Assembly (NCBI RefSeq): GCF_001677475.2
Contig: NZ_CP015229.1
Reading direction: 5' to 3' (one strand)
Source of the DNA: Escherichia coli
GTDB lineage: Bacteria > Pseudomonadota > Gammaproteobacteria > Enterobacterales > Enterobacteriaceae
DNA length: 64,000 nt
Made by a program: the position numbers and the translations under genes. Shown piece after piece: positions 35,515-38,217 of this stretch (the first letter of the stretch is position 1; the number at the start of each line of letters is the position of its first letter). The notes under the pieces were generated by a model. The model made no database searches. It worked only from the letters and a program-made list of their open reading frames with translations, and was not told where the DNA came from.

Positions 35515-38217
35515 TTATTGCTTAGTAAACGGCGCGAAGATTTCGCTAAATGCGTACTTCGGTGCCTGTTCTTTAGTCAGGCCGTGGAATTCCGGAGACA
35601 GGTTAGTGCCGCCTGGCAGGTCGCGCGCGATTGACCAGATACCAACCATACCGAGATTACGCTTCTGCGCATCCTGCATGACCAGACGAGCATCAGAGAG
35701 ATAGAACACCTCGCCCTGAACGTCGTTCACGCCAACCATCGGCGTGGTACCCATCATAGCGTCAATTTCTGCATCGCTCTTGTTGGGATGGAGGCCTTTC
35801 AATTGTGAATGCAGGTTGGCAATCGCAGACGTTGCACACTTACCGTGAATGTTCTGGCCTTCGGTATTTGCAGACTGACAAATCGCGTTACCGTAGTCCA
35901 TTGTCATCACGTTCACACCCGCCAGCTCAACACCTTTCGCTTTGGCATCGCTCAGGACATTCATCCCTTCCGGCGTCAGGCCAGTCGGCAGAATTGGCAA
36001 GGTGTACCAGATAGCAATATCTTTGCCTTCTGACTTCCATTTATCCTGCACTTTCTTCACAGCAAGGTTACGACGTTCAATAGATGCCTGATCCGCAACC
36101 CAGGTGCCTTCGATATCGAAGTCCAGGACTCTGAGGTTCAGGTTATCAACGATGTCATAATAATGCTGCATCAGATCGTCTACGTTCTTACAGGAAGCAG
36201 CCAGCGGAGCGTTGTTAGCACCACCGATAGACAGCATCACATCGCCGCCAGCCTCACGCAGGGCTTTGATTTTGCTGTACTGAGCGTAATTTTGCATACC
36301 ATAAGCGGTACCCCATGTCGGCAGACAGGTGTTCGCATCTTTACTCACCACAAACGCCAGCGTGAAGTGGTTGACGTTATGATTCTTAGCCAGCGCAGCC
36401 AGATCCGGGATCGTATTCAGCGTAAAGTCAACATACGGTGCATAAACGTGTTTCGGCCACGCTTTCTTCGGCGTACCTACACGTTCTTTGGTTCCGGTCC
36501 AGTCAACAAAAACACGCCACGGGTTGCTGTCAGAAGGAGAAACTTTCTGCACTTTACTCTGAGAAATGTAGTTCGCACCGTTAAAGCGAATCAGCGTATC
36601 GCTGGTATAAAGCGTTTCTGGATTAAACTGCGGCGCATTATTCAGCTCTTCGTTGCTATAGCTCTGAGCCTTACCTAACGGCTTCCACGGGCGGCTATTG
36701 CTACCGGTGGCGTTTTGGTTCGCAACCAGAGCAGGGTTGTCACTTTGCGTCCAGAACAGCGCTTCATAAGCCTGCCCATCAACAACAACGCGATCACCTT
36801 TCACGTACACAGTGGATGCGGACCATGCTTTCGCCGGTTCGTATTTCTTCCACGGGTTATCACCGCCTGGGACAAAGCCCCATGCGTCTTGATCGACAGA
36901 AGTTTTATAATGTGCATCGTTATAATCTACGATGCTGTCCGCGCTGTACGCTTTGCTGGCCTGGAAACCATCCGCAACAATGACGCCGCCGTTATCAATT
37001 TCACAGGTAGTCGGGTTACCGTACTGACTCAATTCCGCAGCGGTAGCTGTACGCACGAGACGCCATGGGTTATTGGAGTTTTCAGCGCTGGTACCCCGTG
37101 GGCAATCTTTAGACCCAACCCACCAGGCGTTCTTGTAAACATTACCATTGAAAATAACATGGTAAATTTCGCTACCTTCCTGGCCGCTCCACGCTTGCAA
37201 TGAGTAATCGTTACCGCTATCCGCTGGTGTTGATGGCTCGTTGTTATCCGGAGTTGGGGTAACCGGAGTTTCTGGTGTTTCCGGAGTTGGATCAACCGGA
37301 GTCACAGCACCGCCATTATTATCCGGCTTAACGGAACAGGAGCCAGGGTTACCATACTGACTGATTTCTGTTGCCGTTGCCGTGCGAACATAACGCCATG
37401 GGTTACTGGCATCGTTTTCTTTCGCATCGCCTGGGCAATTTGCCGCGCCTACCCACCAGGCGTTCTTATAAATGCCGCCGTTGTAGATAACGTACCATGT
37501 AGAAGAACCTTCCTGACCTTTCCAGGCTACGACAGCATAGTTGTCGTTTGACTTATCAGCTGGGGCTGGCTGAACATCAGGAGCCGGTTTAACGTCCGGT
37601 GCCGGTTTCACATCCGGTGCAGGCTGTGGTGCTGAAGTACAGGACTGTGGATTACTGGTTTGCGTGATTTCCGTTGCCGTAGCGGCACGAACATAACGCC
37701 ATGGGTTGCTGGCATCATTGCCTTTCGCATCACCCGGGCAGTTAGAAGAGGCTACCCACCAGGCATTTTTATATACCGCACCATTAAAGACGACATACCA
37801 GGTCTGACCGCCCTGCTGTTTATTCCAGGCAACTACAGAAGAATTAGACGGAACAGTGCCCTGTGCTGGTGTAGCCGAACCGCCATTAGCCGGCGTATTG
37901 GATGCAGGCGTATTTGAATTTGAAGAAGATGAGCTGCCGCTCTTTTCGCAGGAAAGTGTATTGCCATACTGACTAATTTCAGCAGCTGTCGCGGTACGCT
38001 TTAAACGCCACGGGTTAGTTGCATCATTTGCTTTCGCTTTTCCCGGGCAATTTGTAGAAGAAACCCACCAGGCATTTTCATAAATTTTGCCATCGAAAAT
38101 AACCTGATATTTATTACCACCTTGTTGGTTATTCCATGCTTCCATTGCCAATGCTGGCAGAGCGGAACACACCAGCCCCATACCAATCATAGATTTAGTA
38201 AATATATTTAATTTCAT
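35515..38217 (-). CDS. chiA: Periplasmic endochitinase ChiA (GH18 catalytic domain preceded by four tandem chitin-binding-like modules); probable T2SS substrate
   Basis: 900-aa ORF with signal peptide MKLNIFTKSMIGMGLVCSALPALA, four repeats of W...Y-(K/E)NAWW..NCPG...NPWR modules, PAPDVK linker repeats and a C-terminal GH18 region (LDFDIEG). Confidence 0.93.
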   Translation of the reverse strand: MKLNIFTKSMIGMGLVCSALPALAMEAWNNQQGGNKYQVIFDGKIYENAWWVSSTNCPGKAKANDATNPWRLKRTATAAEISQYGNTLSCEKSGSSSSSNSNTPASNTPANGGSATPAQGTVPSNSSVVAWNKQQGGQTWYVVFNGAVYKNAWWVASSNCPGDAKGNDASNPWRYVRAATATEITQTSNPQSCTSAPQPAPDVKPAPDVKPAPDVQPAPADKSNDNYAVVAWKGQEGSSTWYVIYNGGIYKNAWWVGAANCPGDAKENDASNPWRYVRTATATEISQYGNPGSCSVKPDNNGGAVTPVDPTPETPETPVTPTPDNNEPSTPADSGNDYSLQAWSGQEGSEIYHVIFNGNVYKNAWWVGSKDCPRGTSAENSNNPWRLVRTATAAELSQYGNPTTCEIDNGGVIVADGFQASKAYSADSIVDYNDAHYKTSVDQDAWGFVPGGDNPWKKYEPAKAWSASTVYVKGDRVVVDGQAYEALFWTQSDNPALVANQNATGSNSRPWKPLGKAQSYSNEELNNAPQFNPETLYTSDTLIRFNGANYISQSKVQKVSPSDSNPWRVFVDWTGTKERVGTPKKAWPKHVYAPYVDFTLNTIPDLAALAKNHNVNHFTLAFVVSKDANTCLPTWGTAYGMQNYAQYSKIKALREAGGDVMLSIGGANNAPLAASCKNVDDLMQHYYDIVDNLNLRVLDFDIEGTWVADQASIERRNLAVKKVQDKWKSEGKDIAIWYTLPILPTGLTPEGMNVLSDAKAKGVELAGVNVMTMDYGNAICQSANTEGQNIHGKCATSAIANLHSQLKGLHPNKSDAEIDAMMGTTPMVGVNDVQGEVFYLSDARLVMQDAQKRNLGMVGIWSIARDLPGGTNLSPEFHGLTKEQAPKYAFSEIFAPFTKQ
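37033..38145 (-). repeat. Four tandem intragenic repeats (~65-70 codons each) encoding the ChiA carbohydrate-binding modules, plus short PAPDVK linker repeats
   Basis: Recurrent protein motif AW..Q.G...Y.V.FNG.VYKNAWWV....CPG....N.SNPWR..R.ATA.E..Q..NP..C at aa ~25-90, 128-193, 223-288 and 330-395, with recurring DNA strings such as ccaccaggcgttcttgtaaa / ccaccaggcgttcttataaa. Confidence 0.8.

What the first reader, a model, noticed from the sequence alone, without database searches (positions are those of the whole stretch)
37033..38145. chiA contains four tandem carbohydrate-binding module repeats and a PAPDVK mini-repeat
Four ~65-70 codon modules share the skeleton AW..Q.G...Y.V.FNG.VYKNAWWV....CPG....N.SNPWR..R.ATA.E..Q..NP..C, and the linker has three consecutive PAPDV(K/Q) units (APQPAPDVKPAPDVKPAPDVQPAPADKS). 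The repeated DNA is prone to slipped-strand or recombinational expansion and contraction, so the 900-codon length here may differ from other strains.
Basis: seen in the sequence. Interest (0 to 1): 0.3.

Follow-up and report, generated by a model that had tools for sequence, protein, structure and literature searches.

The report
Repeated binding modules in E. coli chitinase ChiA
This is the well-known E. coli secreted chitinase gene chiA, whose four old repeated binding modules and short repeats in the linkers between them do cause small, mostly rare length differences between strains, so the finding is real but ordinary.

Summary
Window 35515-38217 (- strand) is chiA, 900 codons, lying between tufA and bfd/bfr and next to the gsp type II secretion genes. 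It encodes a signal peptide, four 66-residue paralogous modules, three Pfam CBM_5_12 modules and a GH18 catalytic domain. The PAPDV(K/Q) x3 unit is present.

The modules are old duplicates. They share 50-71% amino-acid and 58-71% nucleotide identity. Each groups with the module at the same position in orthologues that are 71-77% identical, so there is no homogenisation between copies.

The predicted length variation is real:
- Four-module alleles of 894-900 aa differ by in-frame gain or loss of short repeat units. These are TPE in linker 3 (the 900 versus K-12 897 difference, roughly 35:65 among complete genomes), PAPDVK 3 to 2, a PASNx duplication, and an AT dipeptide.
- Rare three-module alleles of 796-804 aa arise from an exact 303-nt deletion. 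The crossover lies in a 20-29-nt block identical in modules 2 and 3. The deletion occurs on at least two different allele backgrounds.
- No five-module allele was seen.

Pfam does not recognise the four modules. Their only solved relative by sequence is the N-terminal domain of Yersinia entomophaga Chi2. Their fold and profile resemble CBM5/12. The gene and its seven "chitin-binding domains" are already described, so interest is low.

The parts
35515..38217 (-). chiA coding sequence, 900 codons plus stop
   Evidence: ORF. It is 95.6-98.9% identical to genes annotated chiA (bifunctional chitinase/lysozyme) in complete E. coli genomes.
38146..38217 (-). Predicted Sec signal peptide, aa 1-24 (MKLNIFTKSMIGMGLVCSALPALA)
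   Evidence: Read from the sequence and inferred. [quoted passage not shown]
37945..38142 (-). Module 1 (aa 26-91)
   Evidence: It groups with module 1 of the orthologues.
37834..37944 (-). Linker 1 (aa 92-128), Ser/Asn/Pro-rich. It contains TPASNTPAN (37885-37911).
   Evidence: A 15-nt duplication of the PASNx unit is present in allele L005. About 25 of 3,151 complete genomes fall in the identity band expected for this insertion.
37636..37833 (-). Module 2 (aa 129-194)
37688..37707 (-). 20-nt block AACCCATGGCGTTATGTTCG in module 2, identical to the block in module 3 that lies 303 nt away
   Evidence: The block is 29 nt long in alleles L001, L003 and L006. It is the crossover interval of the natural 303-nt deletion alleles.
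37531..37635 (-). Linker 2 (aa 195-229)
37570..37623 (-). PAPDVK-PAPDVK-PAPDVQ: three imperfect 18-nt units
   Evidence: Tandem Repeats Finder. One unit is deleted in L005 and P0048, and 6 nt are deleted in L003. Three units are present in 59 of 60 sampled genomes.
37333..37530 (-). Module 3 (aa 230-295)
   Evidence: A 6-nt CGGCAA (Ala-Thr) duplication lies inside this module in allele L004.
37385..37404 (-). Partner copy, in module 3, of the 20-nt identical block
37198..37332 (-). Linker 3 (aa 296-340), Thr/Pro-rich. It contains TPETPE (37270-37287).
   Evidence: A 9-nt CCRGAAACT indel separates the long alleles (window, L001, L003, L005, L006) from the short ones (K-12 type). Among complete genomes, 1,096 fall in the band expected for the long allele and 2,053 in the band expected for the short one.
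37000..37197 (-). Module 4 (aa 341-406). It carries the published polymorphic sites 362, 370, 378 and 388.
   Evidence: PMC11486038. The window has K362, K370, A378 and V388.
36502..36954 (-). Three tandem CBM5/12 modules (aa 422-461, 463-516, 530-572)
   Evidence: Pfam PF02839, E=2e-15, three matched stretches. PDB hits 2d49 and 6z40. Coordinates.
35524..36459 (-). GH18 catalytic domain (aa 587-898), with DFDIE at aa 699-703 (36109-36123)
   Evidence: Pfam PF00704 at 40.9 bits, above the 29.6-bit cut-off. PDB 9buf E=1.9e-46 and 2dsk E=6.8e-38. Coordinates.
38267..38295 (-). Promoter-like -35/-10 pair upstream of chiA, in an AT-rich spacer
   Evidence: Consensus scan only. GC content is 0.38 at 38000-38599. 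Function is not shown.
35449..35508 (-). Two terminator-like hairpins just downstream of the chiA stop codon
   Evidence: Consensus match only.

Best explanation
The region is the 5' half of chiA, the gene for the E. coli periplasmic/secreted GH18 endochitinase-lysozyme that is exported by the adjacent Gsp (T2SS-alpha) system.

After the signal peptide come four paralogous 66-residue modules joined by low-complexity Pro/Thr/Ser linkers, then three canonical CBM5/12 modules and the catalytic domain. Each of the four modules is a small beta-rich domain related to CBM5/12. It has the aromatic NAWWV and NPW motifs, an added C-terminal helix, and a conserved Cys pair that probably forms a disulfide. 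Most likely the modules raise avidity for GlcNAc-containing polymers and glycans (inferred).

The modules arose by old tandem duplications that predate E. coli, and they now evolve independently.

Length variation arises in two ways:
(a) In-frame slippage of 6-18-nt imperfect repeats in the linkers (TPE, PAPDVK, PASNx) and of one Ala-Thr dipeptide repeat inside module 3.
(b) Rarely, a deletion of exactly 303 nt between the 20-29-nt identical blocks of modules 2 and 3. This leaves a hybrid module and a three-module protein.

The domain layout, the homologies, the alleles and the crossover interval are shown. The binding function, the disulfide and the molecular route of deletion (replication slippage versus RecA-dependent exchange) are inferred.
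For: Identity and context:
- Searches show the order tufA-chiA-bfd-bfr-gspO...
- About 3,126 genomes carry the gsp-containing flank, close to the 3,111-3,162 that carry chiA.
- PMC3707838 describes a chitinase-secreting T2SS-alpha and GspO-dependent ChiA secretion.

Domains:
- Pfam finds GH18 and three CBM_5_12 modules.
- PDB relatives of the catalytic domain are 9buf and 2dsk.

The four modules:
- They are 50-71% identical in amino acids and 58-71% in nucleotides. Third-codon-position identity is only 36-47%.
- Modules group by position across orthologues that are 71-77% identical.
- The AlphaFold2 model has pLDDT 92.5, with four strands and a C-terminal helix.
- hhalign against a CBM5/12 profile gives 89.7% probability, E=1.9e-6.
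- The two Cys are present together, or absent together, across homologues.

Variation:
- Three-module alleles sit at the same locus, including complete genome NZ_CP122727.
- The crossover lies within the identical block.
- The two three-module alleles differ from each other by 75 substitutions, but from four-module alleles by only 5 and 7.
Against: - Pfam CBM_5_12 does not match any of 33 diverse modules, even at E<=1.
- The only close solved relative, Chi2-NTD, is described as a protein-docking domain, not a glycan binder (PMC12705794).
- No binding experiment is available here.
- The apparent independence of the two deletion alleles could also come from one deletion that was then moved onto another background by allelic recombination.
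Confidence: 0.88

Rival explanations
1. The four N-terminal modules are not carbohydrate binders. They are protein-protein docking or adhesin modules, like the homologous N-terminal domain of Yersinia entomophaga Chi2, which anchors that chitinase to the toxin subunit YenA1. In ChiA they would bind host or bacterial proteins directly.
For: - The only sequence relative in the PDB is Chi2 residues 26-91 (E=9e-17 with profile A1, 1e-24 with A2). It is also the best structural match, with TM-score 0.82 normalised to the query length.
- PMC12705794 describes Chi2-NTD as the interface with the chitinase-binding domain CBD-A of YenA1.
- PMC11486038 reports direct ChiA binding to recombinant CHI3L1 and mucin, modulated by substitutions in module 4.
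Against: - In YenTc, the strand described as forming the beta-structure with CBD-A extends from the N-terminus of the compact domain (PMC12705794). The region homologous to the ChiA module is the compact domain itself.
- The Chi2-type copies have lost the Cys pair and changed the first Trp of the WW motif, so they look like the derived form.
- After Chi2, the remaining fold matches are mostly chitin-binding domains.
- The module always accompanies chitinases.
- As PMC11486038 summarises an earlier study, binding to CHI3L1 goes through its N-glycosylated part.
Confidence: 0.15
2. The repeats form a fast-switching contingency locus, in which frequent slippage or recombination changes ChiA length within populations.
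For: Several in-frame repeat-unit indels and a repeated 303-nt deletion occur in natural alleles.
Against: - The repeat units are imperfect (83% matches) and differ at synonymous sites.
- The indel states follow deep allele lineages. The short TPE state accompanies K-12-type sequence and the long state accompanies B2-type sequence.
- PAPDVK x3 is present in 59 of 60 sampled genomes.
- Only 1 of about 3,120 complete genomes has the hybrid junction, and none has an extra module.
- All the changes seen are in frame, so none of them switches the gene on or off.
Confidence: 0.03
3. The similarity between modules is maintained by ongoing gene conversion (concerted evolution), not by shared ancestry under purifying selection.
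For: Three of the window's five private amino-acid changes (F84Y, E186Q, A279T) make a module look more like its paralogues.
Against: - Modules cluster by position across species, not within a species.
- Third-position identity between modules is 36-47%.
- At the one site inspected at DNA level, the new bases in module 2 (ACG CAA) do not match the homologous codons (AGT CAG) of the other modules in the window (read).
Confidence: 0.03

Closest known systems
E. coli K-12 ChiA (YheB, b3338), periplasmic endochitinase/lysozyme, and the ChiA of adherent-invasive E. coli (AIEC) strain LF82
   Same: Same gene, locus and architecture. DNA identity is 98.6% to the K-12-type allele and 96.6% to the B2-type allele. 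The literature counts seven chitin-binding domains, of which the four modules are domains 1-4 (PMC11486038).
   Different: - The window has 900 aa, like LF82/B2 alleles. K-12 has 897 and lacks one TPE unit.
- At the five published polymorphic sites the window reads K362, K370, A378, V388, A548, which is neither the K-12 type nor the LF82 type.
- The exact protein sequence is absent from the 15-billion-protein collection. It has five private amino-acid changes relative to the six E. coli alleles compared.
N-terminal domain of Yersinia entomophaga Chi2 (PDB 6ogd, 9c4k, 9cbc), a component of the YenTc ABC toxin
   Same: It is homologous to each module over the whole 64-66 residues (E down to 1e-24; 43% identity to the model, TM-score 0.82 normalised to the query length). 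It sits N-terminal to a GH18 chitinase.
   Different: - It is a single copy that lacks the Cys pair, and its WW motif reads YW.
- It is attached to a different GH18 subfamily.
- Its described role is docking onto YenA1 through an extra N-terminal strand (PMC12705794).
- Its host protein is part of a toxin complex, not a Sec/T2SS-secreted enzyme.
CBM5/12 chitin-binding modules (Pfam PF02839; examples include Streptomyces griseus ChiC, Serratia ChiB and Bacillus circulans ChiA1)
   Different: The four modules fail the Pfam model entirely. They are about 20 residues longer, with a C-terminal helix and a Cys pair. The family is very small: 47 clusters at 50% identity out of 1.84 billion proteins, and many of those are fragments.
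CBM73 (Cellvibrio japonicus CjLPMO10A, PDB 6z41)
   Same: Similar size (about 65 residues), found on chitin-active enzymes, and a weak fold match (Foldseek E=0.73, TM-score 0.47 normalised to the query length).
   Different: No sequence match at E<=10 with either profile. It ranks below several CBM5/12 domains in both fold searches.

Membership tests
E. coli chiA orthologue | High DNA identity over the full length to annotated chiA | tested here: met
   100% coverage at 95.6-98.9% identity. 3,111 complete genomes cover at least 80% of the query.
E. coli chiA orthologue | Conserved position between tufA and bfd/bfr, next to the gsp genes | tested here: met
   Window ORFs, annotated loci and the gsp genes in the flank.
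Glycoside hydrolase family 18 | Match to the GH18 domain model above its curated cut-off | tested here: met
   PF00704 at 40.9 bits against a 29.6-bit cut-off. PDB 9buf E=1.9e-46.
Glycoside hydrolase family 18 | Catalytic D-x-D-x-E motif | tested here: met
   DFDIE at aa 699-703. That this is the catalytic motif rests on general knowledge of GH18. Activity was not tested.
CBM5/12 (the three C-proximal modules) | Match to Pfam PF02839 above its cut-off | tested here: met
   56.9 bits against a 26.2-bit cut-off, with three matched stretches.
CBM5/12 (the four N-terminal modules) | Match to Pfam PF02839 | tested here: not met
   No hit at E<=10 for the four modules. No hit at E<=1 for 33 homologous modules.
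CBM5/12 (the four N-terminal modules) | Remote homology or shared fold with solved CBM5/12 domains | tested here: inconclusive
CBM5/12 (the four N-terminal modules) | Binding to chitin through surface aromatic residues | not testable with these tools
   The aromatic motifs (W in AW, Y, WW, PW) are invariant in the four modules. No binding data exist for the isolated modules.
CBM73 | Sequence similarity to the founding member (6z41) | tested here: not met
   6z41 is absent from the profile searches at E<=10. There is only a weak fold hit.
Chi2-NTD-like module (uncurated) | Significant sequence and structure match to Chi2 residues 26-91 | tested here: met
   E=9e-17 and 1e-24. Foldseek E=2.2e-5 with TM-score 0.82 normalised to the query length.
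T2SS-alpha (Gsp) substrate | Secretion that depends on the gsp genes | not testable with these tools
   Only linkage and co-occurrence with the gsp cluster were shown. Secretion is taken from the literature (PMC3707838).
Simple-sequence contingency locus | Perfect short repeats whose copy number shifts the reading frame or varies at high frequency | tested here: not met
   The units are 6-18 nt, imperfect and always in frame. The states follow allele lineage and most variants are rare.

The most novel reading that the evidence does not exclude
The 66-residue module may be a distinct, uncurated offshoot of CBM5/12, clamped by a disulfide and carrying an added helix. It is confined to a few dozen protein clusters: Enterobacterales ChiA-type chitinases and the chitinases associated with Tc toxins. 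Its real role in ChiA may be adhesion to host glycoproteins (CHI3L1, mucin), not chitin capture. The recurrent change from four to three modules, which is frequent in Shigella dysenteriae and S. boydii records, would then tune or abolish that adhesion.
Probability: 0.2. Interest if true: 0.4.

Novelty: already known. Interest (0 to 1): 0.2.

Why it matters
ChiA is studied as a colonisation factor of Crohn's-disease-associated E. coli, and the substitutions thought to matter lie in module 4. Three points are useful to people typing or expressing ChiA: alleles differ in linker length, module number can drop to three, and modules 1-4 are not standard CBM5/12 domains but relatives of the Chi2 docking domain. 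None of this changes current understanding of the gene.

Tried and rejected
- Gene conversion between modules as the source of the window's private substitutions. The module 2 change inspected at DNA level does not match any paralogous donor, and modules group by position across species.
- The idea that the 799-aa E. coli proteins are a second, paralogous gene. They lie at the same tufA-bfd locus, and the '2 places per record' are simply modules 2 and 3 of one gene.
- The idea that the three-module alleles are short-read assembly collapses. They occur in a complete genome and on 4-5 Mb contigs.
- Estimating the frequency of the two-unit PAPDVK allele from identity bands. This failed because BLAST splits or overlaps the alignment pieces, so only the 59-of-60 sample is available.
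- NCBIfam gave no hit for the whole protein.
- The exact-sequence look-up of the window protein found nothing, so the source strain was not identified. The best flank identity to any complete E. coli genome is 98.9%.
- A five-module reciprocal product was looked for and not found.
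Full report
**What is there**

The finding lies inside a 900-codon ORF on the minus strand, 35515-38217. Elongation factor Tu (tufA, 38509-39738) lies upstream and bacterioferritin (34604-35080) downstream.

Megablast against 5,426 complete E. coli genomes finds the gene in 3,162 of them. Identity is 95.6-98.9%, the gene is always annotated chiA (bifunctional chitinase/lysozyme), and it always sits between tuf and bfd. The 24.5 kb on the bfr side carries the gsp type II secretion genes. That flank is complete in 3,126 genomes, nearly the same number as carry chiA. The literature describes this as the chitinase-secreting T2SS-alpha (PMC3707838).

chiA looks like its own transcription unit. 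There is a terminator-like hairpin after tufA, an AT-rich spacer (GC 0.38) with a promoter-like site, and two terminator-like hairpins after the stop codon. These are consensus matches only.

**Checking the observation**

The repeat finder returns one family of four 207-nt direct copies spaced 303-333 nt apart. In protein terms the four 66-residue modules are aa 26-91, 129-194, 230-295 and 341-406.

The gene shares 39 off-diagonal 11-mer pairs with itself, against 1.9 +/- 1.9 in codon shuffles, so the repeat is not chance.

The PAPDVK-PAPDVK-PAPDVQ run is at 37570-37623. Tandem Repeats Finder gives period 18, 2.7 copies and 83% matches.

There are three more tandem modules, aa 422-572, which are standard CBM5/12 (Pfam E=2e-15, three stretches). 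There is also a TPETPE mini-repeat in linker 3.

**What the modules are**

Pfam finds only the three CBM_5_12 modules and GH18 in the protein. The four N-terminal modules get no hit at E<=10, and neither do 33 homologous modules from other proteins at E<=1. NCBIfam has nothing.

A profile of the modules hits one thing in the PDB: residues 26-91 of 'Chitinase 2' of the Yersinia entomophaga toxin complex (6ogd/9c4k; E=9e-17, and 1e-24 with a broader profile).

A profile-profile comparison with the CBM5/12 modules of the same proteins gives 89.7% probability and E=1.9e-6 over the core (V-x-F-N-G-x-x-Y ... W-W-V ... N-P-W).

I therefore read the module as a divergent, longer relative of CBM5/12. 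Its two Cys are kept or lost together among homologues, which suggests a disulfide.

The literature simply counts them as chitin-binding domains 1-4 of 7 and places the 'pathogenic' substitutions 362/370/378/388 in domain 4 (PMC11486038). Those positions fall in module 4 of the window, which reads K, K, A, V.

In YenTc the homologous Chi2 N-terminal domain is described as the part that docks Chi2 onto YenA1. A beta-strand extending from the N-terminus of the compact domain is an important part of that interface (PMC12705794). A protein-binding role for the ChiA modules therefore cannot be excluded.

The family is tiny. Only 47 of 1.84 billion representatives match at E<=1e-3, and many of those are frameshifted E. 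coli fragments.

**Age of the duplications**

Module pairs are 50-71% identical in protein and 58-71% in DNA. Third-codon-position identity is only 36-47%, and the longest shared exact run in the window is 11-20 nt.

Orthologues at 71-77% identity also have four modules. Each module is closest to the module in the same position in the other species, not to its neighbours. Other relatives have three modules (Superficieibacter, P0132) or one (Enterobacter, Citrobacter rodentium and others). The array is therefore old and is not being homogenised.

**Does length vary between strains?**

Yes. In a spread sample of 39 full-length hits, the gene is 2694 nt in 21, 2703 in 14, 2700 in 2 and 2697 in 1. 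One further copy is split by an IS1 insertion.

Aligning six alleles with the window shows that every indel is an in-frame gain or loss of a short direct repeat:
- A 9-nt CCRGAAACT unit (TPE) in linker 3. This is the whole difference between this 900-aa protein and the 897-aa K-12 protein. Identity bands suggest 1,096 long and 2,053 short alleles among complete genomes.
- An 18-nt PAPDVK unit, three to two copies, in L005 and in the 894-aa cluster representative P0048. It is rare, since 59 of 60 sampled genomes have three units.
- A 6-nt loss in the same repeat (L003).
- A 15-nt PASNx duplication in linker 1, in about 25 of 3,151 genomes.
- A 6-nt Ala-Thr duplication inside module 3 (L004).

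**Module number**

The protein search turned up about 60 distinct E. coli sequences of 796-804 aa. They sit at the same locus, including one complete genome, ETEC1746.

They lack exactly 303 nt. Module 2 runs into module 3 within the block GATGCCAGCAACCCATGGCGTTATGTTCG. That block is identical in both modules in alleles L001, L003 and L006 (29 nt). It is 20 nt long in the window and in K-12, because of one C/T difference.

The 799-aa and 796-aa alleles differ from each other at 75 sites. They differ from four-module alleles of the B2 type and the K-12 type at only 5 and 7 sites respectively. The same deletion has therefore most likely happened more than once.

Proteins named as Shigella dysenteriae and S. 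boydii carry the same three-module form plus a truncation in GH18.

The deletion is rare in complete E. coli genomes. Only one record matches the hybrid junction at 95% or more, and no record has a third copy of the region, so no five-module allele is present. No protein longer than 900 aa appeared among close homologues.

**Verdict**

This is nevertheless a known gene with a known multi-domain layout, and the variation is modest. The TPE indel is a common polymorphism that follows allele lineage, and the rest are rare.

The points I did not find in the papers consulted are:
- Modules 1-4 fall outside the curated CBM5/12 model.
- Their one close solved relative is the Chi2 docking domain.
- There is a defined 20-29-nt deletion hotspot between modules 2 and 3.

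These are small additions, not a new kind of system.

Noticed in passing
window 35515-38217 and its flank 10000-34500: chiA is absent from about 42% of complete E. coli genomes; 3,162 of 5,426 have any match. Some genomes keep only the first 61 nt (H40). The number with the full gsp-containing flank (3,126) is almost the same, which suggests that chiA and the T2SS-alpha genes are present or lost together. PMC11486038 gives 74% prevalence in RefSeq proteomes.
   Followed up: partly
window 37662-37665 (module 2, aa 185-186); also 37967, 37383, 36606: The window's ChiA is not in the 15-billion-protein collection. It has ten private nucleotide differences from six E. coli alleles. Three of these fall within 4 nt (TCAGAA to ACGCAA, S185T/E186Q); the other private amino-acid changes are F84Y, A279T and A538T. 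The best identity of the gene, and of a 24.5-kb flank, to any complete E. coli genome is 98.9%, so the source strain is from an unsampled lineage.
   Followed up: partly
P0117, P0119, P0125: ChiA proteins labelled Shigella dysenteriae or S. boydii are 692-701 aa. P0117, the one read in full, combines the three-module deletion with a frameshift that truncates the GH18 domain, so it is probably a pseudogene. P0117 was seen on 142 contigs.
   Followed up: partly
P0136: A UniProt entry named 'Endochitinase 11' of the fungus Metarhizium anisopliae (522 aa) is 87% identical to E. coli ChiA. This looks like a bacterial sequence attributed to a fungus. A partial 'Klebsiella pneumoniae' entry (P0114) is 88% identical.
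   Followed up: no
H8, NZ_CP054224.1: chiA is interrupted by an IS1A insertion in strain EcPF16. In other records (BL21 Star H160, LB19b H234) only part of a linker query matched a gene annotated 'carbohydrate-binding protein'.
   Followed up: no
window 36163-36678 (+) and 36715-37203 (+): Two ORFs of 171 and 162 aa lie antisense to chiA. They sit wholly inside the conserved coding sequence and are most likely not genes.
   Followed up: no
P0029, P0042: One module copy heads a 385-aa protein with no chitinase-like sequence seen in it. Two weaker, CBM5/12-like copies end an 807-aa protein that carries an HELGHH metalloprotease-like motif. The module or its relatives therefore occur outside GH18 enzymes.
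   Followed up: no
window 35427-35449: A short AT-rich tandem repeat (GAATAAAAATAT, 1.9 copies) lies in the chiA-bfd spacer, next to the terminator-like hairpins.
   Followed up: no
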